A stretch of 64,000 nt of DNA from an uncultured Acidobacteriota bacterium (lineage in GTDB: Bacteria > Acidobacteriota > Vicinamibacteria > Vicinamibacterales > CAVVIG01): positions 170,661-234,660 of the forward strand of contig CAVQJU010000014.1 of assembly GCA_963712905.1 (NCBI GenBank), given 5' to 3'. The notes under the pieces are model-generated. The model had not been told where the DNA came from. It was given only the letters and a program-made list of their open reading frames with translations, and searched no databases. Below, in pieces: positions 4,039-37,239 of this stretch (its first letter is position 1; each line of letters starts with the position of its first letter). The translations under genes were made by a program, and so were the position numbers.

Positions 4039-5640
4039 CTAGTCCGGAAGCCCGAACGCGACCAGCGAGGTCCCCGAGCCGATGACCACCTGCTGCTTGC
4101 CGTCGAGCATGTACGTCATCGCGGCGGCGCCCCAGATCGGCGAGCCGGTGGGGTAGAACCAGAGGTTCTTGCCCGTCTTCGCGTTGAACGCCATGAAGTT
4201 GCCTTCGTTGTCGCCCGCGAACACGACGCCAGACGCCGTGGACATCACGCCCGCCATCGTGGGCGTTTCGTACTTGAACTCCCACTTGCGCTCGACGGTC
4301 ACCGGGTCGATCGCGCGCAGGACGCCGTAGCTGCGGTCCGCGTAGCGTTGAACAGTCCCGCCCATCAGGCCGCGGCCCGGCGTGAACTCTTCCTTCGCCG
4401 GGTAGTACGTGGCGCACGTTTCGCGCACCGTGACGAAGAACATCCGGAGCGCCGGATCGTAGGACGGCGGCATGTGGTTCGTGCTGCCCCACTGATCGGG
4501 GAGGCAGCCCTTGCTGCCGTCGTTGACGACGATCGGGTGGCCGTCCTGATCCAGTTCGCGCGCCCACGTCTGGTCGCTGAAAGGTTTGCCCACGATCAGC
4601 TTGCCCGTGACGCGATCGAGCACGTAGAAGAAGCCGTTGCGGTTGGCGACCATGACGGTCTTGCGCAACTGGCCGCCGATCGGCACGTCGGCGATGACCG
4701 GCACGTGATTCGAGTCCCAGTCGTGCAGGTCGTGCGGTGTGAACTGGAAGTACCACTTCAGCTTGCCCGTGTCCGCGTCGATCGCGACCAGCGAAGCGGT
4801 ATACAGGTTCGTGCCCTTTCGATCCTCTCCGTAGTAATCCGGGTTCGGGTTGCCCGTGCCGTAGTAGAGCAGGTTCAACTCGGGATCGTAGCTCCCGGTG
4901 ACCCACGCGCCGCCGCCGCCGCGCGCGATGGCGTCGGTCTTGGGCCACGTCTCGCTGCCGGGTTCGCCCGGGCCGGGCACGGTGTAGAAGCGCCAGGCGA
5001 GCTTGCCCGTGGCGGCATCGTACGCGTCAATGAATCCACGGGTCGGCCAGTCGCTGCCGGAGATCCCCATGATGACTTTGTCTTTCACGACGAGCGGCGC
5101 CGCGGTCGCGGCGTAGCCAAGCTTGTAGTCGGCCATCACCGCGTCCCAGGCGACGGTGCCTGTTCGCGTGTCGAGCGCGATCAGGTGCGCGTCGGCTGTT
5201 GGCATGAACAGCTTGTCGCCGAGGATCGCGAAGCCGCGGTTTACTGGAGAGGTCGCGCCGTACGTTAGGTCGTTCGGCAGCGTGCGTTTGTAGTTCCAGA
5301 ACGGGCGGCCGGTGCGCGCGTCGATCGCCCACGCGTTGTTGAAGGGCCCGGGCACATACAGGATGTCGTTGACAGCGAGCGGCGTCCCCTCGAATCCCCG
5401 GCGGGGCACGATGCCGGTCTGGAACGTCCATTTCGCGGTGAGGCGATGGGCGTTGGCCGGCGTGATCTGGGTGAGGGGGCTGTGGCGCTGCCCCGTGAAA
5501 TCGCCGGAGTAGGTGACCCAGCGCGTCGGGTTCTTGTAGCCCTGCAGCAGATCCTGCCACGTCACCGCCGAGGGACCGGACTCCTGCGCGAGCAGCACGG
5601 CGGAGCCAAGGATGGCGGCCGCGATGGCGACTGTCTTCAT
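4039..5640 (-). CDS. PQQ-dependent (quinoprotein) dehydrogenase, periplasmic beta-propeller
   Basis: C-terminal 533 aa of ORF 4039..6411, starting at MKTVAIAAAILGSAVLLAQ (signal peptide). Propeller motifs recur: ALDTRTGTVAW, AYDAATGKLAW, AIDADTGKLKW, VLDRVTGKLI, AFNAKTGKNLW. ATGA start/stop overlap with the upstream cytochrome c. Confidence 0.85.
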   Translation of the reverse strand: MKTVAIAAAILGSAVLLAQESGPSAVTWQDLLQGYKNPTRWVTYSGDFTGQRHSPLTQITPANAHRLTAKWTFQTGIVPRRGFEGTPLAVNDILYVPGPFNNAWAIDARTGRPFWNYKRTLPNDLTYGATSPVNRGFAILGDKLFMPTADAHLIALDTRTGTVAWDAVMADYKLGYAATAAPLVVKDKVIMGISGSDWPTRGFIDAYDAATGKLAWRFYTVPGPGEPGSETWPKTDAIARGGGGAWVTGSYDPELNLLYYGTGNPNPDYYGEDRKGTNLYTASLVAIDADTGKLKWYFQFTPHDLHDWDSNHVPVIADVPIGGQLRKTVMVANRNGFFYVLDRVTGKLIVGKPFSDQTWARELDQDGHPIVVNDGSKGCLPDQWGSTNHMPPSYDPALRMFFVTVRETCATYYPAKEEFTPGRGLMGGTVQRYADRSYGVLRAIDPVTVERKWEFKYETPTMAGVMSTASGVVFAGDNEGNFMAFNAKTGKNLWFYPTGSPIWGAAAMTYMLDGKQQVVIGSGTSLVAFGLPD

Positions 5641-6411
5641 CGTCGTTCTCCCAAGCCCCGCAGGCTGTTCATGAATGTCAGGACGTCGGTCAGGTCGCTG
5701 TCGTTCAGCCGATCGGGGCCGAACGCCGGCATCAGCGAGTTGGTCTCGCGGACGACGTCGCGCACGCTGCTCTTGAGGAAGCCGCGAAGGTGCCCGCCCT
5801 CGTCCATCATCTGAATCGAGAACGCGTCTTCGCTTTTTCGCACGCCGCGGATGCGCTGGCCGTCGCGCGTCGTGACGGTGACGGTCTTGTAGCCGTCCGG
5901 CATGGACGCGTTGGGATCGCGCACGGCCTGTCTCAGCGCCGCAGGCGGCTGGCTCTGCGCGATGACCGAGAGATTCGGGGCCGAGTGGACCGCCGCGGCC
6001 GTTGACCGTGTGGCAGGTGCCGCACGACGCCCAGAAGACCCGCTCGCCGTTCGCGGCGTTGCCTCGCGGCACTTCGGCCGCGCCCGCGCCGTTCAGGCTG
6101 CGCAGGTAGCTCACGAGGTTTCGCAGGTCGGCATCCGGCGCGTTGCTGGAGGGCATGATGGTGTTCGGCACACCCTGCCGGATCGTCTGGAACACGCGTT
6201 CGTCGGTCGCCCCGGAGGCCCACAGCCTGGTCAGGTCGTGTCCCGCCACGCCCTTCGCGTCGCTCCCGTGGCACTCCGCGCACCGCTCGCGGAACGTCGC
6301 CCCACCGGCCTGGACGGCCGGATCGCCCGGCCCGTTCTGCCCGGCTGCGGCACCGGTAATCGCTATCACGACGGCGCAGGCCGTCAGACCCCATTTCGGC
6401 ATGCCGCACAT
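5637..6411 (-). pseudogene. di-haem c-type cytochrome, one frame break as sequenced
   Basis: The N-terminal part (frame of ORF 4039..6411) has a signal peptide and two CxxCH motifs (CAECH, CGTCH). The conserved C-terminal part (RDPNASMPDGYKTVTVTTRDGQRIRGVRKSEDAFSIQMMDEGG...MPAFGPDRLNDSDLTDVLTFMNSL) is in the frame of ORF 5637..5924. Removing one nt in the G-run at 5977-5980 gives a continuous GPLGPNLSVIAQSQPPAALRQAVRDPNAS. Confidence 0.7.
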
Positions 6412-6462
6412 GATACTCGCTGGAGGTTGGAGGTTGGAGGTTGGGCCCCGGGGGGCCGGGAG

Positions 6463-7185
6463 TTATTCCGGGTTCGCGACGAAGCGGTACCCGACGCCGC
6501 GGACGGTCTGCAGGTGCCTCGGGCTCGAGGGTTTGTCTTCCAGGTACCGCCGCAGCCGCACGATGAAGTTGTCGATCGCGCGCGTGTCGGTGTCCTCGCG
6601 AACGCCCCAGACTTTTTCCAGAATTGTCTTGCGCGAGACGGGCCGCCCCTCGTGCTCCACGAGATAGCGGAGCAGCGACGCCTCCATCAGCGTGAGCGGC
6701 ATCGTCTTGTCGCCCATCTGGACCTCGAGCAGCTCGAAATCGATGGTCCGCTCGCGGAACGTGAACCGGCTCGAGACGGCGGGCGCCTGCTCGCGGTTCT
6801 CGCCGAGCCGGAACCACTCGCGGCGCCGCAGCAGGCCCTGGACGCGGGCGATGAGGATCGGCAGTTCGAACGGCTTGGGCAGGTAGTCGTCGGCGCCGGA
6901 CTGGAATCCCTCCAGCACGTCCTCGGGACGGTCGCGCGCGGTCAGCATGAGGACCGGTACGAACTGGCCCGAGCGGCGGAGGTCGGCGACGACCTTGAAG
7001 CCGGTGATGCCCGGCAGCATGACGTCGAGAATCACGAGCTCGAACCGAGCCGGGTCCGCCGTGATCTGGGCGAGGGCGGCTTCCCCGGAGTCCACCACAG
7101 AGACGTCGTGGTGCTCGGCTGTCAGGTTGAAACGCAATCCCTCGGCCAGGTGCTGCTCGTCCTCGACCAGGAGAATGCGGCTCAT
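6463..7185 (-). CDS. OmpR/PhoB-family response regulator
   Basis: Receiver domain (ILLVEDE, LVILDVMLPG, LMLTA, KPF) plus winged-helix output (LTLMEASLLRYL, TVRGVGYRF). 4-nt overlap with the kinase gene. Confidence 0.9.
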   Translation of the reverse strand: MSRILLVEDEQHLAEGLRFNLTAEHHDVSVVDSGEAALAQITADPARFELVILDVMLPGITGFKVVADLRRSGQFVPVLMLTARDRPEDVLEGFQSGADDYLPKPFELPILIARVQGLLRRREWFRLGENREQAPAVSSRFTFRERTIDFELLEVQMGDKTMPLTLMEASLLRYLVEHEGRPVSRKTILEKVWGVREDTDTRAIDNFIVRLRRYLEDKPSSPRHLQTVRGVGYRFVANPE

Positions 7186-8099
7186 TGCGGGGGCTGTTGC
7201 AGGAGCGGCAGCTGCACCGTGAACGTGCTGCCTCGGCCGGGGCCTTCGCTTTCGGCGAAGACCCTCCCGCCGTGGCGCAGCGTGACTGACTGCACGATGA
7301 ACAGCCCCAGCCCCGTGCCTTTGACGCGAAGGGCCACGGCACCCGGAATGCGGTAGAAGCGTTTGAAGATCCGCTTGAGCTCGCCGGTCGAGATGCCGAC
7401 ACCGAGATCGCGCACGCGCAGCGTTGCCTGTGTGCTCTCGGGCTGCTCGAGCTCCACGGCGATCTGCACCTGCGCCCCTGAGTACTTCACCGCGTTGTCC
7501 ACCAGGTTCGAGACGACGGCTTTCAGCTCGTCTTCGTCGCCGAGCACCCGCGGCGTCGCGCCCGGGATCAGCTTCTCATGGTACGTCAGCGCGTTCTCGG
7601 GCAGGTGGTGGCGCGTGCGCGCCAGCGCCACGCAGTCCTGCACGACGGCCGCGAGGTCCACCGGTGTGCGGCTCGTGTGGCGGATCTTGGCGCCGACGCG
7701 TCCCGCGCGCAGGACCTGCTCGATGGTGCCCTGCAGGCGCTCGGTGTCCTCGACCATCACCTTGTAGAACTCCTGCCGCTTGGCGTCGTCGATGCTGCGG
7801 CTCTGGAGCGTCTGGAGATAGAGGCGCATCGAGGCGACGGGGGTCTTCAGTTCGTGGGTGACGGCATGGATGAACGCGTCGTGCTGCTCGTTCCGCCGGA
7901 TTTCGCGGACGAGGAAGATGGTGTTCAGCACCACGCCCGTGATGATGACCGGAAAGATCAGGACGCCGAGGATCAGCAGCCCGGCTTCGCGCCAGTTGAG
8001 GATGACCCAGCTGATGTTGAGGAACACCGCGGCAGCCGTGAGGCAGACGCCGAGGACGATGAAGAAGGCGACCGATCGCCGGCGGCTGCCAGACGTCAT
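7182..8099 (-). CDS. sensor histidine kinase, intramembrane-sensing type (two TM helices, no extracytoplasmic or HAMP domain)
   Basis: TM1 is VAFFIVLGVCLTAAAVFLNISWVIL and TM2 is LLILGVLIFPVIITGVVLNTIFLV, joined by the ~6-aa loop NWREAG. The H-box FIHAVTHELKTP follows directly. N box NLVDNAVKYS; G box KGTGLGLFIV. Confidence 0.9.
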   Translation of the reverse strand: MTSGSRRRSVAFFIVLGVCLTAAAVFLNISWVILNWREAGLLILGVLIFPVIITGVVLNTIFLVREIRRNEQHDAFIHAVTHELKTPVASMRLYLQTLQSRSIDDAKRQEFYKVMVEDTERLQGTIEQVLRAGRVGAKIRHTSRTPVDLAAVVQDCVALARTRHHLPENALTYHEKLIPGATPRVLGDEDELKAVVSNLVDNAVKYSGAQVQIAVELEQPESTQATLRVRDLGVGISTGELKRIFKRFYRIPGAVALRVKGTGLGLFIVQSVTLRHGGRVFAESEGPGRGSTFTVQLPLLQQPPQ

Positions 8100-8127
8100 A
8101 CGCCAAGCATAAGACGATCGGGGCGGG

Positions 8128-9000
8128 TTAGGCGGCGATCTCTTCCTCGGGCACCTGGTTGACCTTTGCGACCTTGACGTCCCAGACGAGGCCGATCTTG
8201 CTGAGGAGGGTCAGTTCAATCCAGGTGGGGTCGAATTCGTACCAGGCCAGGCCGTGCCGCGCCGACACCGGGTGCGCGTGATGGTTGTTGTGCCAGCCTT
8301 CGCCGAACGTCAGCAACGCGACCCACCACGAGTTCTTCGAATCGTCCTTGGTCACGAACCGTCGCCGCCCCCACATGTGGGTCGCGGAGTTGACGAGCCA
8401 GGTGGCGTGCAGGCCCACGACCACGCGCAGGAAGATCGCCCAGTTCACCATCGGCCATCCGCCGATCGCCAGCAGGATGAGTCCCACCGTCGTGAGGGGC
8501 ACCCAGTGATACGTGGACAGCCACTGGTAGAAGCGGTCGCGCCCGAGATCCGGCGCGTAACGCGCCATGATGGCCGTGTCGTTGTGCTGCGCCTCGCCGA
8601 ACACCACCCAGCCCAGGTGCGACCAGAAGCCGCTGACGCGGGGCGTGTGCGGGTCGAGCGTCTGGTCCGAATGCTGATGGTGCTGGCGGTGAATGGCGAC
8701 CCAGAACATCGGGCCGCCTTCGAGCGTCAGCGTCCCGCAGACCGCGAGGAAATACTCGAACAGCTTCGGCGTCTTGAACCCCCGGTGCGTGTGCAGCCGG
8801 TGATAGCCCATGCTGATGCCCAGGCCGACAGCCACCCAGTAGAGGAACGCGGCGACCAGCAGGTTGGTCCAGCTGAACTGAAACAGGGCAACGCCCGCCA
8901 GCACGTGGAACACGACCAGGACGACGGCGGTCAACCAGTTGATCTTCGAGTACCGGGACGTGCCCGGCTGCGCGACGAGGCTGCTCAATGGACGCTCCAA
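8128..9000 (-). CDS. membrane acyl-CoA/acyl-lipid (delta-9-type) fatty-acid desaturase
   Basis: Three His boxes (HRLHTH, HRQHHQHSD, HNNHHAH) and four hydrophobic segments. Apparent TTG start at 9000. Confidence 0.9.
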   Translation of the reverse strand: MERPLSSLVAQPGTSRYSKINWLTAVVLVVFHVLAGVALFQFSWTNLLVAAFLYWVAVGLGISMGYHRLHTHRGFKTPKLFEYFLAVCGTLTLEGGPMFWVAIHRQHHQHSDQTLDPHTPRVSGFWSHLGWVVFGEAQHNDTAIMARYAPDLGRDRFYQWLSTYHWVPLTTVGLILLAIGGWPMVNWAIFLRVVVGLHATWLVNSATHMWGRRRFVTKDDSKNSWWVALLTFGEGWHNNHHAHPVSARHGLAWYEFDPTWIELTLLSKIGLVWDVKVAKVNQVPEEEIAA

Positions 9001-9050
9001 TTGGGGGAATGACGTGCCCTGATAACCCTAACAAGCCCCGGCTTCCTCAA

Positions 9051-9071
9051 CTGTAAGAGTTCTGTAAGACT
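9051..9071 (-). promoter_or_regulatory. phased direct repeat upstream of the desaturase operon (candidate response-regulator box)
   Basis: CTGTAAGAGT (9051-9060) and CTGTAAGACT (9062-9071). The 8-nt core is perfect and the spacing is 11 bp, 51-71 nt upstream of the desaturase start. Confidence 0.4.
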
Positions 9072-9451
9072 TGCGTTTGCCGGTCTTTGCAGCCTTGTGC
9101 GGCCTGCCAATTCACACGGTGGCGCGTGTCCGCACCGCGCAGGGGTTGCCGGGGGACCGGGCGGTCCGATAGTAGGCGAGCCGCGGCCGGCTCGCGTCCG
9201 TGCTCGACGCGCTCGTCCAGGAACTGGCCCTGGGCCACACGCACCCGAGATGTTCTTCCAGGACTCGGAGGAGTGGGCGAGGAAAGCGCGGCTGGCCAAT
9301 GTCTGAACGTGCCGCGGCCCGGTTGCCGCGCTCGATCATCTGGGGGATTTCACGACATCCGCGATGCCGAGCAGCGTCGTGAACGGGCGCTGGGCGCCGG
9401 ATTGAGGCTTCGCGTCTTCGGCCGTCCGGGTCCAGCGCCATCGCGGATTGA

Positions 9452-31497: not shown

Positions 31498-33252
31498 TTA
31501 TTGTAAAGCGATCTGCCCGAGCAGGGCGTCGGCAACCTGACGCAGCAGCAGGGCGTCGGCCGCCGGGAGGTGGACGTGCAGCGCGCGCCGGCCCGCCGCG
31601 TCCAGCGAGGCGAAATCGCCCAGCGCCTGCGCCAGTTCGAGCGTTCCGAAGGTAAACGGGTAACCTGGAATATCGAGGTCCGCGCGCGGCGTGGCGGTGA
31701 TCAGGACGAACACGCCGGTGTTCGGCCCGCCTTTGTGCAGCTGGCCCGTCGAGTGCAGATATCGCGGGCCGACCCCCGTCATCGTCGCGGCGCGCGTGCG
31801 GTCCCGGACGGCATTCCGGAACCAGGCGAGGTCGCCGGTCAGCGCCCGCGGGTCGATGTAGGCGAGGAGCGCGAAGTAATCGCCGGGCTGGATCAGCGTC
31901 AGCAGCGCGTCAGGGCCCGCCCCGGACAGCCGCTCACGGGCCTGGCGGCTCGCCGTCAGCGTGATGCCACCGGCGAGTGTCAGGCCGACTGCCGCGCGGG
32001 GGAACGATCCGTTCGACTGGTACGTATTCAGCAACGTCGTGGTCGCGTCTTTCGCCTGCTTGACGTTGGGCTCGTCGAAGGGGTTGATGCCCAGCAGCGC
32101 CCCGGCGATTGCCGTCGCGATCTCCCAGCGCACGAACTCGGCACCCAGCGCGGCCGGCTCGTACCAGTCGATCGTCGCCGTCGGATGGCCTGCGGCCTCG
32201 AGCTGGTCGAGGTCGCGACTCCGCCCCGTGCTGCCGGGCCTCTGGACTTCGACGAACAGACGGTCGCGACCGTAGTGCGACGGCGTGCCCGGCGTCTCGC
32301 CCGCGATCGGCACGACGCCGGCGCCGCTCTTCCCGGTGCTTTCCGCCACGAGCTGTTCAACCCACAGGCCGAACGGCTCCAGTTCCCGCGGGAGGAGCAG
32401 CGTCAGCTTGTCGCGGCCCTCCCGCGCGGCTGCGCCAAGAAGAAGGCCGAGCGTGACCGCCGGATTGGCGTCCGCCGGTTCGGCCGAGGCAGACAGCATC
32501 GCGAGGCCCCAGCCCGTGAGCGCTGCGATGTCCTGTCCCATCAGCGCCGACGGCACCAGGCCGAAGAACGACAGGGCCGAGTAGCGCCCGCCGATGTCCG
32601 ACGGGTTGATGAAGGTGTCGCGAAACGACTCGGCGCGCGCGCGCCGCGCCAGCTCGGTGCCTTCGTCGGTGATCGCGACGAAATGATCCGCCCACCGCGC
32701 GACGCCCGCGTCTTCCAGCGTGCGGCGGAAATGTGCCGCGAGGGTGTTCGGCTCGATCGTCGTGCCCGACTTGCTGGCCAGCAGATACAGTGTGTGGCGG
32801 GGTGTGGTGGCGGCCGCGCGGATCGCGTCGGGATCCGTCGAGTCGAGCATGTGGAAGCGCGGCCGGCCCGGCGCCGTGCCGACGATGGCTCGCAGCACCT
32901 CCGGCGCGAGGCTGGAGCCGCCCATCCCGAGCAGCACAATATCGGTGAAGCCGTCGCGCTTGACGCCGTCGGCAAAAGCCCGGAGGCGATCGAGCGAGTC
33001 GGCCATCAGGATGGGTGACGACAGCCAGCCGAGCCGGTTGGCGATGGTGGCCTGCACCTCGGGCGACGCGCTCCAGGCCGACGGCTCCCGGCGCCACATG
33101 GCGGCGGCCGCGAGTTGAGCCGGTTTCATGTCGGCGCCAACGCGATCGCTGATTGGCCCCGGCACGATCCGCAGGCTGCGTCGCAGGCGGTCGCGCTTGC
33201 CGGCCACGTCGAGCGCAGGCCATCTGGTGAGGAGATCCGCCGCGTGCTCCAT
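31498..33252 (-). CDS. pgi: glucose-6-phosphate isomerase
   Basis: PGI/SIS blocks: VLLGMGGSSLAPEV, LYLLASKSGTTIEPN, IGGRYSALS, GINPFDEPNVKQAK, HSTGQLHKGG. The true start may be the internal ATG at 33129. Confidence 0.85.
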   Translation of the reverse strand: MEHAADLLTRWPALDVAGKRDRLRRSLRIVPGPISDRVGADMKPAQLAAAAMWRREPSAWSASPEVQATIANRLGWLSSPILMADSLDRLRAFADGVKRDGFTDIVLLGMGGSSLAPEVLRAIVGTAPGRPRFHMLDSTDPDAIRAAATTPRHTLYLLASKSGTTIEPNTLAAHFRRTLEDAGVARWADHFVAITDEGTELARRARAESFRDTFINPSDIGGRYSALSFFGLVPSALMGQDIAALTGWGLAMLSASAEPADANPAVTLGLLLGAAAREGRDKLTLLLPRELEPFGLWVEQLVAESTGKSGAGVVPIAGETPGTPSHYGRDRLFVEVQRPGSTGRSRDLDQLEAAGHPTATIDWYEPAALGAEFVRWEIATAIAGALLGINPFDEPNVKQAKDATTTLLNTYQSNGSFPRAAVGLTLAGGITLTASRQARERLSGAGPDALLTLIQPGDYFALLAYIDPRALTGDLAWFRNAVRDRTRAATMTGVGPRYLHSTGQLHKGGPNTGVFVLITATPRADLDIPGYPFTFGTLELAQALGDFASLDAAGRRALHVHLPAADALLLRQVADALLGQIALQ

Positions 33253-33278
33253 CGCGGTAGCATACTATTTTGGGAACG

Positions 33279-34045
33279 ATGCTCAGGGGAACCGCGACAT
33301 GCAGGCCTGAAAGGCCCGCGCTGCTCGGTCTCGTCGCGCTCGTCGCGGCCTGCTGGCTCGCCGGCTGTGCTCCGGCCGGAGAGCCGCCGGCCACCGCCGC
33401 GCGCGAGCAATCCGCGGCGCCCGCGCTGCCGGCGACGCCGCCCACCGGGGCCGTCGCGGCACGGCCGCGGATCGTCGTGCTTGGGGACAGCCTGACGGCG
33501 GGCCTCGGCCTGTCGCCGGCAGAGTCGTATCCGACGCTGCTGCAGCAGAAACTGGACGCCGGTGGGTTCCACTATGACATCGTCAACGCCGGCGTGTCGG
33601 GCGACACCTCGGCGGGCGGCCTTTCCCGGCTCGACTGGGCACTCGACGGCGACGTGCGCGTGCTGATCATCGCCCTCGGCGGCAACGACGCGCTGCGCGC
33701 GCTCCCGCCCGACGAGTTGAAGCAGAACCTGTCGCGCATCATCGAGCGCGCGCAGTCCAGGCACATCCGGGTGCTGCTGGCCGGCATGGAGGCGCCGCGG
33801 AACTTCGGCCGCGATTACATCGTCGCATTCCATCAGGTGTACCCCGCGCTCGCCAGGCAGTATCAGATTCCCCTCGTGCCGTTTCTGCTCGACGGTGTCG
33901 CAGCCAACCCCGCGCTGAACCAGCGCGACGGCATTCATCCCACCGCTGAAGGCGCGCGCCTGGTCGCGGACAACGTCTGGACCGCCCTGAAGCCGCTCGT
34001 AGAAGAACAGCGGAGAACGACCCGGAAGGAAGGCCCCGCCGGGTC

Positions 34046-34049
<4 letters not shown>
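33279..34049 (+). CDS. SGNH/GDSL arylesterase / acyl-CoA thioesterase I-like lipoprotein (TesA-like)
   Basis: Lipobox LAGC. SGNH blocks: VVLGDSLTAG (I), NAGVSGDTS (II), ALGGNDAL (III), DGIHPT (V). Classic tesA-ybbA-ybbP neighbourhood. Confidence 0.8.
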
Positions 34050-34698
<649 letters not shown>

Positions 34699-34702
<4 letters not shown>

Positions 34703-37239
34703 CGTTCGTCCTTCGCATGGCCGTGCGCGAGATGCGGGCGGCCTGGCAGCGCCTGCTGTTCTTCTTCATCTGCATCGCTGTCGGCGTTGCCGCCATCGTC
34801 GCGCTGCGGTCGGTGATCCGGAGCGTCCGGGACGTGCTCGGCGGCGAAGCCCGGTCTCTTATCGCGGCCGACGTGCTCATCTCGACCAACCGCGACTGGA
34901 CGCCCGAGGCCCGGGCGACCATCGACCGCCGCCTGGCGGAGGCCGGCTCCACCGCACGCACCGAAACGATCGAGACGCCGACGATGGTGCGGCCGGTCGA
35001 CGCTGCCAAGGTCGCGACGCGGATGGTGGAGCTCAAGGCCGTGCAGGCGCCGTTTCCGCTCTACGGCACGCTGACGCTCGAGGGCGGGCAGCCCTACAGT
35101 CATGCGCTGCTCGCGAATCACGGCGCCCTGGTGCGGCCTGAACTGCTGACCGCGCTTGGCGTCGCGGTGGGGGATTCGCTGACCATCGGGGAGGCCGCGT
35201 TCACCATCCGGGGTGTCGTGGCAAGCGAGCCCGGGCGCAATATCGGCGCCTTCAGCCTCGGCCCGCGCGTCTTCATCGACTTCGACGACGCGACGGCGAC
35301 CGGTCTGGTCGCGTTCGGCAGCCGCGTTCGCCACGTGCTCGCCGTGCGTGTGCCCGACGACCGGATTCCGGCCCTGGTCAAGACGCTGAACGACGACTTC
35401 GCGGACAACTTCATCAACACGCGGTCGTACCTGTCTACCGACGACGCGATCGGCCGCGACTTCGATCGGGCGGAAAACTACCTGAGCCTGGTCGGCCTCG
35501 TAATCGTCATCCTCGGCGGCATCGCGGTGTCGAGCGTGACGCGGGTGTTCGTGCTGCAGAAGATCAAGGGCATCGCGGTGCTCAAGTGCCTCGGGGCCAC
35601 GAGCGGGCAGATCATCGCCGTCTACCTGCTGCAGGTGATGTCGCTCGGGCTCGCGGGAAGCCTTCTCGGCGTGGCGGTCGCGCAGGGCGCGGTCGCGGCC
35701 GTTCCGCTGGCGCTCGGCTCGTCGTCGACGTCGCTGCTGGCGGGCGTGCACTACACGGTGACCTGGGGCGTGGCGCTCCAGGGCGCGACCATCGGCGTCC
35801 TCGTGTCGCTGCTGTTCGCCATCGTGCCGCTGCTGCAGGTGAGGCTCGTGCGGCCTTCGCTGCTCCTGCGCGATGAAGCGCGCCCGTCGCAGCGCGACGG
35901 CCTGAGGGTCGCCGCCACCGTGTTCGTGTCGGCGGCGCTCGTCGCGGTCGCGGCCTGGCAGGCCGCGTCGCTTCGGGTGGGGCTGGTCGTGTGCCTCGGG
36001 TTCGCCGTGCTGGCCGTGGTCCTCGTGCTGGCCGGACGGCTGCTGGTCGCGCTCCTGGCGCCGCTCGCCAACGCGCGGTCGTTCCCGCTCCGGCACGCCG
36101 TCCTGCACCTGTCGCGGCCCGGCAACCAGACGCGCGTGATCCTGCTCGCGGTCGGCCTGGGCGCGTTCTTCATCGTCGGCGTGCGATCGCTGCAGGCGAG
36201 CCTGCTCGCGGAGTTCTCGATCCAGATCAACGAGGAATCCGCCGACATGTTTCTGCTCGACGTGCAGAAGGGCCAGGCAGACGGCGTGCGCGCGTTCCTG
36301 GGCGATCCGGCCAACGGGGCCGGGGCGTGGAAGCTGCTGCCGGTGCTGCGGGCGCGCGTCACGGGCGTCAGCGGCCGCGTGACCACGCTGGAGAGCTTCG
36401 AAGAAGTGCGGGCCCGCGGCTCCCTCGGCCGCGAATACACCATCACGTACCGGGACAACCTCGAAGCCAACGAGCGGATCGTGGACGGCACCTTCTGGCA
36501 CGGCAGTTCACCGGATCCGGAAGTGTCGATCGAGCGGGGCCTGCACGAGCGGTTCGCCATCAACATCGGCGACGTCGTCCGCTTCGACATCCTCGGCCGG
36601 ATCGTCAACGCCCGCGTCTCGAGCATCCGCGACGTGGATTTCAAGGATGCGCGCGCCGGCGGCTTCATGTTCGTGTTCAGGCCCGGGACCCTGGAGCAGG
36701 CGCCCCAGACCTACATCGCGCCCGTCCGGGGGCCCGCGTCGGGCCCGGCGGCGCGCGCCAGGTTCCAGCACGACCTCGTCTCGCGCTTTCCGAACGTGTC
36801 GGTGATCGATTTCCACGAGATCCTGGAAACCGTCCGCGACGTGATGTCGAAAGTGACGCTGGCCATCACGGTCGTCGGGTTCCTGGTGCTCTTCAGCGGG
36901 GGGTTGATCCTCGTGGGCGCCGTCGCCATGACCAAATTCCAGCGCGTGTACGAAGCGGCGGTCTTCAAGACCCTCGGCGCGAACACCCGCAAGATTGCCA
37001 CGATGCTGCTGGTCGAATACGGCGTGCTGGGGTCGCTCGCGGGCTTCGTCGGATCGGCCGGCGCGGTGGCGCTGACCTGGGGCGTCAGCCGGTTCGCGCT
37101 GGACATTCCGTGGAGGCTGTTTCCCGGCGAGCACGTCGGTGGCGTCGCGCTGACGGCCGCGCTCGTGGCCGCGATCGGCGTGCTGTCAAGCCTCGACGTG
37201 CTCCGCAACAAGCCGCTGGCGACCCTGCGGTCGGAGTAG
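34699..37239 (+). CDS. FtsX-like ABC transporter permease, duplicated (YbbP-like, 846 aa)
   Basis: Two MacB-PCD/FtsX-type halves, each ending in a 3-TM FtsX domain (..LKCLGATSGQI.., ..FKTLGANTRKI..). Confidence 0.9.

What the first reader, a model, noticed from the sequence alone, without database searches (positions are those of the whole stretch)
6463..9071. Desaturase co-transcribed with an intramembrane-sensing kinase and an OmpR-type regulator, behind 11-bp-phased direct repeats: a candidate membrane-fluidity circuit
Seen directly:
- The gene order is desaturase, kinase, regulator, with 28-nt and overlapping junctions.
- The kinase has two TM helices joined by about 6 residues, then runs directly into the H-box. 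There is no periplasmic, HAMP or PAS domain.
- CTGTAAGA(G/C)T is repeated with 11-bp spacing 51-71 nt upstream of the desaturase start. That geometry is classically used by OmpR/PhoB-family dimers.

From established knowledge, Bacillus DesK/DesR senses membrane thickness and induces des. It uses a 5-TM HisKA_3 kinase and a NarL-type regulator located separately from des.

The inference is an analogous, architecturally different and autoregulated thermo- or fluidity-sensing unit.
Basis: partly seen in the sequence, partly recalled or inferred. Interest (0 to 1): 0.6.

Follow-up and report, generated by a model that had tools for sequence, protein, structure and literature searches.

The report
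Acidobacterial desaturase control circuit
A membrane fatty-acid desaturase gene sits next to a sensor kinase made of little more than a two-helix membrane hairpin and its DNA-binding partner, with a conserved binding box in the desaturase promoter in about a sixth of sampled soil Acidobacteriota; it looks like an independently evolved version of the Bacillus membrane-fluidity thermostat, but the signal has not been tested.

Summary
The minus strand carries an SCD-type (delta-9-like) desaturase (8128-8988/9000), a 305-aa HisKA kinase with two TM helices and no sensor domain (7182-8099), and an OmpR-type regulator (6463-7185). TCTTACAG is repeated at an 11-bp period at 9051-9069.

- The three-gene order is kept across Acidobacteriota (Vicinamibacterales, Bryobacterales, Pyrinomonadaceae, Terriglobales, Chloracidobacterium).
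- The box (aTTACAnAAsTmTTACAr) lies upstream of the desaturase in 77 distinct promoters. A TGnTAnnnT element always follows at one fixed distance, putting the box centre near -41.5, an activator position.
- The box is the only strong site in this 6.3-Mb genome.
- It stays with the desaturase when kinase and regulator lie elsewhere.
- It is absent from the one desaturase ortholog in a genome without the kinase.
- In one genome it precedes a non-orthologous delta-5 desaturase.

- A conserved TAnnnT ending 6-7 nt before the kinase start codon points to a separate, leaderless kinase-regulator transcript. Co-transcription and autoregulation are therefore at best partial.
- Bacillus des also lies directly upstream of desKR.

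The regulator-box-desaturase link is well supported. Membrane order as the stimulus is inferred. I found no publication on it. I class it as a new variant of a known kind.

The parts
9048..9070 (-). Operator box GTCTTACAGAACTCTTACAGTTG. It holds two TTACA half-sites (9067-9063 and 9056-9052) at an 11-bp period, in the same orientation as the desaturase gene.
   Evidence: Unique in the window. It is the only strong position-weight-matrix hit in the whole genome, at 39.8 bits against 17.2 for the next best. It is conserved in 77 distinct desaturase promoters.
9025..9033 (-). Extended -10-like element TGTTAGGGT (TG at 9033-9032, hexamer TAGGGT at 9030-9025). The predicted transcription start is near 9018, which puts the box centre near -41.5. 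No -35 hexamer is present.
   Evidence: An ungapped alignment of 77 promoters shows cTTGnTAnnnT at one fixed offset from the box. The sigma-70 consensus scan finds no complete promoter.
8128..9000 (-). Membrane fatty-acid desaturase of the SCD/delta-9 type, with His boxes HRLHTH, HRQHHQH and HNNHH. The likely true start is TTG 8988, giving 286 aa.
   Evidence: Pfam FA_desaturase, E 1.3e-19. It matches acyl-CoA desaturase 1 (PDB 4ymk) at E 8e-29 over nearly its full length. Orthologs occur only in genomes that also have the kinase ortholog, with one exception.
8106..8111 (-). Internal -10-like hexamer TATGCT, ending 6 nt before the kinase ATG. It is a candidate promoter for a leaderless kinase-regulator mRNA.
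   Evidence: A TAnnnT hexamer ends 6-7 nt before the kinase start codon in 56 of 79 loci. The background is about 1 per offset.
7182..8099 (-). Histidine kinase, 305 aa. TM1 is about residues 10-34 (8072-7998), the loop is about 4-6 residues, and TM2 is about residues 40-64 (7982-7908). The juxtamembrane stretch REIRRNEQHD follows, then the H-box HELKTP with His82 (7856-7854), the rest of DHp, and the CA domain.
   Evidence: Pfam HisKA 74-135 and HATPase_c 187-299. Hydropathy. AlphaFold gives a continuous helix 36-100. The TM hairpin and linker are nearly invariant across the phylum.
6463..7185 (-). OmpR/PhoB-family response regulator, 240 aa, with a receiver domain and a winged-helix domain. 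Its start overlaps the kinase stop by 4 nt.
   Evidence: Pfam Response_reg plus Trans_reg_C. It follows the kinase in nearly every related locus with enough downstream sequence.

Best explanation
This is a dedicated two-component circuit that sets expression of a membrane delta-9-type desaturase.

Proposed mechanism:
1. The kinase is a dimeric two-helix membrane hairpin. Its second TM helix continues as one helix into the phospho-accepting DHp helix.
2. With no other input domain, the kinase can only read something inside the bilayer. The most likely signal is lipid order or thickness, meaning rigidification after a temperature drop or a loss of unsaturated lipid.
3. In the rigid state the kinase phosphorylates the OmpR-type regulator.
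4. The regulator binds head-to-tail to the two TTACA half-sites centred near -41.5. It recruits RNA polymerase to a promoter that has an extended -10 but no -35.
5. The desaturase is made and the membrane fluidises.
6. The kinase carries the HExxT phosphatase motif. It then switches to phosphatase and shuts the promoter off.

Kinase and regulator are mainly made from their own promoter as a leaderless mRNA. In this genome, read-through from the desaturase promoter may add feedback.

My probabilities for the separate steps:
- The regulator binds the box and controls the desaturase: about 0.85.
- It acts as an activator: about 0.7.
- The stimulus is bulk membrane order or thickness: about 0.5.
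For: Shown by computation:
- The architecture is as described.
- The desaturase-kinase-regulator order is kept in all 17 genomes of the order that have the kinase ortholog, wherever the contig allows. It is also kept in about 55 of about 62 adequately flanked loci from other classes of Acidobacteriota.
- In each locus the best box hit lies mostly 30-120 nt upstream of the desaturase, up to about 215 nt in one Terriglobales locus.
- The extended -10 sits at a fixed offset from the box in 77 promoters.
- Only one strong box exists in the 6.3-Mb genome.

Natural controls:
- Seven genomes have kinase and regulator unlinked from the desaturase. Five of them have a desaturase ortholog, and in 4 of those 5 it still carries the box and the same -10 offset.
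- G040 has a desaturase ortholog but no kinase or regulator, and it has no box.
- Paralogous desaturases at 33-37% identity have no box.
- The exact box pattern occurs upstream of the desaturase in 14 of 17 kinase-positive relatives. It occurs in 1 of 24 kinase-negative relatives, and that one match is not next to a desaturase.
- In G041 the single genome-wide box lies upstream of a non-orthologous Bacillus-type delta-5 desaturase.
- A diverged sister system (L125) pairs a 2-TM kinase and regulator with a 40%-identical desaturase and a TGACAC-N5-TGACAC repeat.

The sensor hairpin is under strong constraint:
- LNvGWilLNWR and VLNTiFLVREIRRNEQHDAFINAVTHELKTP are nearly invariant.
- The sensor module forms one compact family of 420 clusters among 1.84 billion representative proteins.

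From the literature:
- DesK's last TM helix also feeds directly into the DHp domain with no HAMP or PAS domain.
- A single chimeric TM helix is enough for DesK to sense cold (PMC6879721).
- des lies right upstream of desKR (PMC7726353).

No FabA was found in this genome, so desaturases are the likely route to unsaturated lipids.
Against:
- The stimulus is inferred only from the lack of any other input domain and from analogy with DesK.
- Other intramembrane-type kinases, such as BceS and LiaS, do not sense the lipid themselves. They sense through partner membrane proteins.
- An extended -10 promoter can fire without an activator, so a box spanning about -52 to -30 could also repress.
- Three of the seven 'unlinked' genomes (G041, G042, G044) showed no box-bearing delta-9 ortholog. 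They are MAGs, so this may reflect incompleteness.
- The module occurs in only about 18% of sampled Acidobacteriota genomes. It is an accessory trait, not the phylum's general fluidity control.
Confidence: 0.6

Rival explanations
1. The wiring is the same, but the kinase does not read bulk membrane order. It senses through the desaturase itself as an accessory membrane partner, or it senses a specific lipid species. Candidates are the saturated substrate, the unsaturated product, or the enzyme's turnover state. This is how BceS-type and LiaS-type intramembrane kinases depend on a partner protein.
For: - The two-TM, short-loop architecture is that of intramembrane-sensing kinases, which classically need a partner (established knowledge).
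- Desaturase and kinase orthologs are co-inherited almost perfectly.
- The TM hairpin surface is nearly invariant, as expected for a protein-protein or specific lipid contact.
Against: - Kinase and regulator persist unlinked from the desaturase in several genomes.
- In G041 the box precedes a non-orthologous delta-5 desaturase. That is hard to reconcile with a conserved protein-protein sensing interface.
- A single DesK TM helix senses the lipid directly (PMC6879721).
Confidence: 0.2
2. The circuit is a general envelope-stress or membrane-damage response to solvents, antimicrobial peptides, pH or osmotic stress. Desaturation is its output, and it is not a thermostat.
For: Intramembrane-type kinases are typically cell-envelope stress sensors (established knowledge). 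Hik33, which controls cold-induced desaturase expression in Synechocystis, responds to many stresses (PMC6525291).
Against: The regulon appears to be a single desaturase promoter, whereas stress regulons usually have several targets. The target remains a desaturase even after non-orthologous replacement. Both points suggest lipid unsaturation is the controlled variable.
Confidence: 0.12
3. The regulator represses rather than activates. It sits on the -52 to -30 region of an extended -10 promoter that is active on its own, and it is released on signal.
For: The conserved TGn extended -10 can dispense with a -35 (established knowledge). The box overlaps the -35 position.
Against: The half-sites point the same way as the gene and are centred near -41.5. 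That is the class II activating geometry typical of PhoB-type regulators (established knowledge). RpaB activates from a similarly upstream box near -51 and represses from boxes at the transcription start (PMC6525291). The -10 hexamers (TAGGGT, TACCGT, TACGAT) are weak.
Confidence: 0.2
4. It is the phosphate-starvation system (PhoR/SenX3 with PhoB/RegX3), as JGI's automatic 'SenX3' names suggest, and the repeat is a Pho box.
For: - JGI annotations name it SenX3.
- PnpS and PhoR are the top NCBIfam models for the catalytic core, and PhoB models rank among the top four for the regulator.
- The repeat has Pho-box-like geometry.
Against: - All scores fall far below the family cut-offs (165 against 334 for PhoR, 163 against 296 for PhoB).
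- The kinase has no PAS domain.
- The genome holds a single strong box, and it is in front of a desaturase.
- A better PhoB candidate (228 bits) lies about 6 kb from phoU and pstB on another contig.
- The module is present in only about 18% of the phylum.
Confidence: 0.02

Closest known systems
DesK-DesR-des membrane-fluidity thermosensor of Bacillus subtilis
   Same: - The gene order is desaturase, kinase, regulator, with the desaturase under its own regulated promoter (PMC7726353).
- The kinase has no extracytoplasmic, HAMP, PAS or GAF domain.
- The last TM helix runs directly into the DHp helix (PMC6879721).
- The regulon is essentially one desaturase gene.
- The kinase carries a phosphatase motif.
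   Different: - The DHp domain is HisKA rather than HisKA_3.
- There are 2 TM helices instead of 5.
- The regulator is OmpR-type rather than NarL-type.
- The operator is a simple direct repeat at an 11-bp period. Pdes has an inverted plus a direct repeat (PMC7726353).
- The desaturase is SCD/delta-9-type rather than delta-5.
- About 18 residues separate TM2 from the phospho-His, much less than DesK's 2-helix coiled-coil linker.
- No shared ancestry of the sensor is detectable.
Intramembrane-sensing histidine kinases (BceS, LiaS and SaeS types; Mascher's class)
   Same: The N-terminal input consists of only two TM helices joined by a very short loop. There is no extracytoplasmic domain.
   Different: No ABC transporter or LiaF-like partner lies in the conserved module. 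There is no HAMP linker. The output is a lipid-modifying enzyme rather than a detoxification or envelope-repair system. The phylum is Acidobacteriota rather than Firmicutes.
Hik33 (NblS)-RpaB of cyanobacteria and its HLR1 box
   Same: It has an OmpR-type regulator. [quoted passage not shown] The kinase is described as responding to membrane fluidity and cold (PMC6525291). RpaB activates from boxes upstream of the core promoter.
   Different: - Hik33 has HAMP and PAS domains (my own knowledge).
- The HLR1 period is 10 bp, not 11.
- RpaB controls a large regulon, whereas here there is a single target.
PhoR-PhoB and SenX3-RegX3
   Same: The catalytic core and the regulator belong to the same broad families. 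The operator has direct repeats at an 11-bp period overlapping the -35 position, like Pho boxes.
   Different: There is no PAS domain, the scores are below the cut-offs, there is a single target, and a separate better PhoB candidate lies near phoU.

Membership tests
DesK/DesR-des system (Bacillus) | HisKA_3-type DHp domain (PF07730) in the kinase | tested here: not met
   Pfam finds HisKA (PF00512), E 1.4e-11, and no HisKA_3.
DesK/DesR-des system (Bacillus) | Polytopic sensor of 5 TM helices | tested here: not met
   Hydropathy and the AlphaFold model show two TM helices.
DesK/DesR-des system (Bacillus) | The last TM helix continues into the DHp domain with no HAMP, PAS or GAF domain | tested here: met
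   The model has a continuous helix 36-100 through His82. No other domains are found. The DesK feature is described in PMC6879721.
DesK/DesR-des system (Bacillus) | NarL/LuxR-type response regulator | tested here: not met
   The output domain is Trans_reg_C, the OmpR/PhoB type.
DesK/DesR-des system (Bacillus) | The target desaturase lies directly upstream of the kinase-regulator pair and has its own regulated promoter | tested here: met
   The Bacillus arrangement is described in PMC7726353.
DesK/DesR-des system (Bacillus) | Kinase switched on by cold or membrane rigidification | not testable with these tools
   No expression or biochemical data are available.
Intramembrane-sensing histidine kinases | Input made of two TM helices with a loop under 25 residues and no other sensor domain | tested here: met
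   The loop is about 4-6 residues, and only HisKA and HATPase_c are found.
Intramembrane-sensing histidine kinases | Genetic link to an accessory sensor, either a BceAB-type ABC transporter or a LiaF-like protein | tested here: not met
   The only conserved neighbours are the desaturase and the regulator.
PhoR-PhoB / SenX3-RegX3 | Scores above the curated family cut-offs, with a PAS domain between the membrane anchor and the DHp domain | tested here: not met
   phoR_proteo scores 165 against a cut-off of 334, and PhoB scores 163 against 296. No PAS domain is found.
PhoR-PhoB / SenX3-RegX3 | A multi-promoter Pho regulon and a link to pst/phoU | tested here: not met
   There is one strong box in the genome. 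phoU lies on other contigs with a better PhoB candidate nearby.
OmpR/PhoB-family response regulators | Receiver domain plus winged-helix Trans_reg_C domain | tested here: met
OmpR/PhoB-family response regulators | Binds tandem direct repeats at a period of about 10-11 bp | tested here: inconclusive
   A conserved site of this form exists and tracks the regulator phylogenetically. Binding itself was not tested.
RpaB/HLR1 | Two octameric direct repeats separated by 2 nt, giving a period of 10 bp | tested here: not met
   The period here is 11 bp in all 77 promoters. HLR1 is defined in 10.1101/443713.
SCD-type (delta-9) membrane desaturases | Three His boxes (HxxxxH, HxxHH, HxxHH) and homology to stearoyl-CoA desaturase | tested here: met
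   HRLHTH, HRQHHQH and HNNHH are in the translation. PDB 4ymk matches at E 8e-29.
SCD-type (delta-9) membrane desaturases | Delta-9 regiospecificity on acyl-lipid or acyl-CoA | not testable with these tools
   This needs lipid analysis.

The most novel reading that the evidence does not exclude
Acidobacteriota evolved, independently of Bacillus, a natural 'minimal' membrane-order sensor. It is a two-helix hairpin levered directly onto a HisKA DHp helix, with only about 18 residues from the membrane to the phospho-His. It reads bilayer thickness or order with no partner protein. Through one OmpR-type regulator and one operator it sets lipid unsaturation. The target desaturase can be swapped between delta-9 and delta-5 types.
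Probability: 0.45. Interest if true: 0.72.

Novelty: new variant of a known kind. Interest (0 to 1): 0.57.

Why it matters
Control of membrane fluidity by a sensor kinase is understood mechanistically in essentially one system, DesK. Its five-helix sensor had to be engineered down to a minimal form before it could be studied.

This module offers a naturally minimal sensor: two TM helices, no linker domain, a defined 23-bp operator and a single target promoter. It occurs in about a sixth of sampled species of one of the most abundant soil phyla.

If it senses lipid order, three things follow:
- It would be a second, independent solution to the same problem, which helps separate general principles of bilayer sensing from features peculiar to DesK.
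- It would be a compact part for temperature- or membrane-state reporters.
- It would be a concrete handle on how uncultured soil Acidobacteria acclimate to temperature swings.

The regulator-operator pair is also one of the few operator predictions available for this phylum.

Tried and rejected
- **Promoter scan.** The sigma-70 consensus scan found no complete promoter in 6300-9400. This is expected for a promoter without a -35, so I used phylogenetic footprinting instead.
- **Terminators.** Terminator-like hits inside the genes are at the chance level. The GC hairpin after the regulator stop (about 6444-6457) folds no better than shuffled sequence, z = 0.81. I do not claim a terminator there.
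- **Weaker box hits in this genome.** The 16.8-bit hit lies inside a CHAD-domain coding sequence near ppx and phoU (C17:104678). I rejected it as a target. The 17.2-bit hit (C10:506273) was not examined.
- **Box-like match in a kinase-negative genome.** The only such match (G005) lies before a Wzz-like polysaccharide gene and lacks the fixed -10. I treat it as chance. The reversed-pattern control gave 3 hits in 41 genomes.
- **Pho reading.** Rejected.
- **Literature.** Five searches found no paper describing this module. The library lacks most subscription journals, so prior description cannot be excluded.
- **Sensor module search.** Searching residues 1-80 against 1.84 billion representatives found only the family itself. 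No other domain architectures or outputs appeared among the 150 best hits listed.
Full report
**1. What is in the sequence**

The window is G000:C14:170661-234660 and has 68% G+C. Three minus-strand ORFs lie head to tail.

- **Desaturase, 8128..9000.** In the closest relatives the first TTG is not a start codon. The in-frame TTG at 8988, 6 nt after GGAG, is conserved there, so 8988 is the likelier start. Pfam gives FA_desaturase. The translation has the three His boxes HRLHTH, HRQHHQH and HNNHH. The closest solved relative is stearoyl-CoA desaturase 1 (4ymk), E 8e-29 over nearly the full length. It is an SCD/delta-9-type membrane desaturase.
- **Kinase, 7182..8099, 305 aa, after a 28-nt gap.** Pfam finds only HisKA (residues 74-135) and HATPase_c (187-299).
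  - Hydropathy shows two hydrophobic segments at about residues 10-34 and 40-64, joined by about 4-6 residues.
  - An AlphaFold model built on 45 orthologs (pLDDT 79) gives helix 4-34 and then one unbroken helix 36-100. TM2 is therefore continuous with the DHp helix that carries His82, about 18 residues from the membrane.
  - The H-box HELKTP contains the HExxT motif. From established knowledge, HisKA kinases that also act as phosphatases carry this motif.
- **Regulator, 6463..7185.** Its start overlaps the kinase stop by 4 nt. It has Response_reg plus Trans_reg_C domains, so it is OmpR/PhoB-type.
- **Repeat.** TCTTACAGAACTCTTACAG lies at 9051-9069 on the minus strand. It is the only match in the window even with three mismatches allowed, against an expected 0.03.

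**2. The module is conserved, not local**

- The kinase has clear orthologs in 17 of 41 related genomes (full length and 52-90% identical wherever the contig and assembly allow), spread over several families of the order.
- tblastn on those loci finds the desaturase upstream and the regulator downstream wherever the contig allows.
- A scan of species genomes returned at least 500 relatives. The best 80 (56-90% identity) are nearly all labelled Acidobacteriota MAGs: Vicinamibacterales, Bryobacterales, Pyrinomonadaceae/Blastocatellia, Terriglobales and Chloracidobacterium.
- About 55 of the roughly 62 loci with enough flank have the same three-gene order.
- In an even sample of the phylum, 53 of 301 genomes (31 of 186 genera) carry one copy. 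All hits have E of 1e-92 or lower (threshold 1e-70).
- Among the order's relatives, desaturase orthologs at 57% identity or more occur in the genomes that have the kinase ortholog, with one exception (G040). In one kinase-positive genome (G025) the contig is cut before the desaturase.
- A second desaturase clade, 33-38% identical, is distributed independently of the kinase.

The module is an accessory trio that is co-inherited.

**3. The repeat behaves as the operator**

- I built a position weight matrix from 12 non-redundant sites in the order and scanned the whole 6.3-Mb genome. The desaturase promoter scores 39.8 bits and the next best site 17.2 bits. The 16.8-bit site lies inside a coding sequence. 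In this genome the regulon appears to be one promoter.
- In each of the 5.9-kb loci from other classes, the best hit falls upstream of the desaturase, mostly by 30-120 nt and by about 215 nt in one Terriglobales locus. The consensus is aTTACAnAAsTmTTACAr.
- I aligned 77 distinct promoters on the box without gaps. A second conserved element, cTTGnTAnnnT, appears at one fixed offset: TG at +37/38 and TA at +40/41 from the box start, with T at +45.
- In the window this element is TGTTAGGGT at 9033-9025. It is an extended -10. No -35 hexamer is present, and the proximal half-site lies 21 nt from the hexamer, too far to serve as one.
- With a transcription start about 7 nt after the hexamer, near 9018, the box centre is near -41.5. 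From established knowledge, this is the class II activator position, and PhoB-type regulators replace a -35 in a similar way. For comparison, RpaB activates from boxes near -51 and represses from boxes at the transcription start (PMC6525291).

**4. Natural controls**

These go beyond adjacency.

- **(a) Unlinked genomes.** Seven genomes have kinase and regulator without an adjacent desaturase. Five of them have a desaturase ortholog elsewhere. In four of those five it carries the box and the same -10 offset (L101, L102, L103, L105).
- **(b) Desaturase without the kinase.** G040 has a 61%-identical desaturase ortholog but no kinase or regulator ortholog, and it has no box (best score 6.7).
- **(c) Paralogs.** Paralogous desaturases have no box.
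- **(d) Presence and absence.** The exact pattern TTACNNAANTNTTACA occurs upstream of the desaturase in 14 of 17 kinase-positive relatives. Two of the other three have variant boxes, and one contig is cut. Among 24 kinase-negative relatives it occurs once, before a Wzz-like gene and without the fixed -10. The reversed-pattern control gave 3 hits in 41 genomes.
- **(e) Target swap.** G041 lacks the delta-9 ortholog. Its only exact box in 6.5 Mb lies about 190 nt upstream of a Bacillus-type delta-5 desaturase (NF052548, 429 bits). The target is non-orthologous but is still a desaturase. The spacing to a -10 differs there, and this is a single case.
- **(f) Sister system.** A diverged system (L125) has a kinase 31% identical, with 2 TM helices and a loop of about 20 residues, and a regulator 51% identical. 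It lies divergently next to a 40%-identical desaturase, with a TGACAC-N5-TGACAC repeat in the desaturase orientation.

Together these make regulator-box-desaturase control very likely. Binding itself has not been shown.

**5. Correction on co-transcription**

- In the window clade the desaturase-kinase spacer is 16-53 nt. In most other clades it is 70-370 nt and folds into very strong hairpins, for example -52 to -145 kcal/mol.
- A TAnnnT hexamer (TACAAT, TAAAAT, TAAGCT and similar) ends exactly 6-7 nt before the kinase start codon in 56 of 79 loci. The background is about one per offset.
- The window has TATGCT at 8111-8106, then 6 nt, then the ATG. There is no room for a Shine-Dalgarno sequence.
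- The conserved design is therefore a regulated, largely monocistronic desaturase plus a kinase-regulator pair on its own, probably leaderless, transcript. Bacillus is arranged the same way, with des right upstream of the separately transcribed desKR (PMC7726353).
- In this window nothing terminator-like lies in the 28-nt gap. Read-through may add positive feedback, but autoregulation is not a defining feature. Unlinked kinase-regulator pairs have no box of their own.

**6. What the kinase senses (inference)**

- The only possible input is the TM hairpin.
- The hairpin is more conserved than much of the cytoplasmic part. G17, W36, G45, G55, N59 and T60 are invariant. L27, W31, N35 and R37 are nearly invariant. 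The juxtamembrane stretch FLVREIRRNEQHDAFINAVTHELKTP is almost unchanged across classes.
- Residues 1-80 match only 420 clusters among 1.84 billion representative proteins. In all 150 best hits listed the match lies at or near the protein's N-terminus.
- Polar Asn and Thr residues lie a few residues inside each interface, and a charged cluster lies at the inner interface. This recalls DesK's 'sunken buoy' logic (PMC6879721), but that is a resemblance and not a test.
- A single chimeric DesK TM helix is enough for cold sensing (PMC6879721), so a two-helix hairpin is a plausible lipid-order sensor.
- No FabA was detected in this 88%-complete genome, so desaturation is the likely route to unsaturated acyl chains.
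- I put direct sensing of membrane order or thickness at about 0.5, sensing through the desaturase or a specific lipid at about 0.2, and a broader envelope-stress signal at about 0.12.

**7. The Pho/SenX3 reading is rejected**

- JGI's automatic name is SenX3, and PhoR and PhoB models score among the best. All are far below their cut-offs.
- There is no PAS domain and only one box in the genome.
- A regulator about 6 kb from phoU and pstB scores 228 bits on the PhoB model, against 163 for this regulator.

**8. Comparison with known systems, and novelty**

- It works like DesK-DesR-des: same gene order, same direct coupling of a TM helix to the DHp domain, and a single-target regulon.
- It fails every homology-based membership test for that family. 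It has HisKA rather than HisKA_3, an OmpR-type rather than a NarL-type regulator, 2 TM helices rather than 5, and a delta-9-type rather than a delta-5 desaturase.
- Architecturally it is an intramembrane-sensing kinase, but it lacks the usual ABC-transporter or LiaF partner.
- Its half-site resembles the boxes of RpaB (HLR1) and, from my own knowledge, B. subtilis PhoP. The period is 11 bp, not HLR1's 10 bp.
- Five literature searches found no description of the module.
- Within this scan, an earlier follow-up on another genome (e1-2219722) reached the same reading. I re-derived that reading here and added the controls in section 4, the fixed-offset -10, the internal leaderless promoter and the delta-5 target swap.
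- I class it as a new variant of a known kind, with interest 0.57.

Noticed in passing
window 5637-6411 (minus strand): The gene after the regulator looks like a dihaem cytochrome c broken by a frameshift. The first haem domain and the start of a second (CxxCH) are in the frame of the 6411 ATG. [quoted passage not shown] The 790-aa ORF 4039-6411 is therefore an artificial fusion with the PQQ dehydrogenase, which has its own signal peptide near 5560. This could be an assembly error or a pseudogene.
   Followed up: partly
window 6422-6457: Between the regulator stop and the cytochrome c start there are three AACCTCC heptamers on the minus strand and a GGCCCC-GG-GGGGCC palindrome. The hairpin folds no better than shuffled sequence (z = 0.81), so I would not call it a terminator.
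   Followed up: partly
L143 and L146 (Bryobacterales genomes G044:C28:15771 and G043:C10:805243): A 126-aa OmpR-type winged-helix protein with no receiver domain (Trans_reg_C only) has a triple TTACA box (TTTACACCTTTTACAAAACTTTTACAAG) about 90 nt upstream of its start. It may be a second, phosphorylation-independent player on the same operator type in genomes where kinase and regulator are unlinked from the desaturase.
   Followed up: partly
L142 (G041:C1052:2240-2255): The only exact box in this 6.5-Mb genome lies about 190 nt upstream of a Bacillus-type delta-5 desaturase (NF052548, 429 bits) rather than an SCD-type enzyme. The -10 spacing differs from the usual fixed offset.
   Followed up: partly
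L125 (G032:C87, about 32930-34805): This is a diverged sister system. The regulator and a 2-TM kinase with a loop of about 20 residues are transcribed divergently from a 40%-identical desaturase. A TGACAC-N5-TGACAC direct repeat lies in the intergenic region.
   Followed up: partly
Desaturase-kinase spacers of L042, L046, L054, L057, L061, L073, L083, L087 and others: In Pyrinomonadaceae and other non-Vicinamibacterales clades the spacer is 70-370 nt. It forms very long, near-perfect hairpins of -50 to -147 kcal/mol, often built from short tandem units such as GGGTGAC/GGGTGTC or GGACTTT. These could be terminators or REP-like insertions.
   Followed up: no
L002, L010, L011, L017 (G003, G021, G004, G001): The desaturase, kinase or regulator genes of several close relatives are split by frameshifts. 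G001 has at least five in the kinase. Given the few large contigs, long-read assembly errors are the likelier cause, rather than decay of the module.
   Followed up: no
G000:C17:104681-104696 and G001:C1:491456: A box-like TTACACAAATGTTACA (16.8 bits) lies inside the 5' part of a CHAD-domain gene next to ppx, pstB and phoU. It is conserved in a genome of the same genus. It is probably kept by coding constraint and is not an operator.
   Followed up: partly
G000:C12:153461-154264, C10:613209-614003, C2:61527-62216: The genome has three further desaturase paralogs (31-34% identity) without the box, and no detectable FabA. One of them may supply basal unsaturation.
   Followed up: partly
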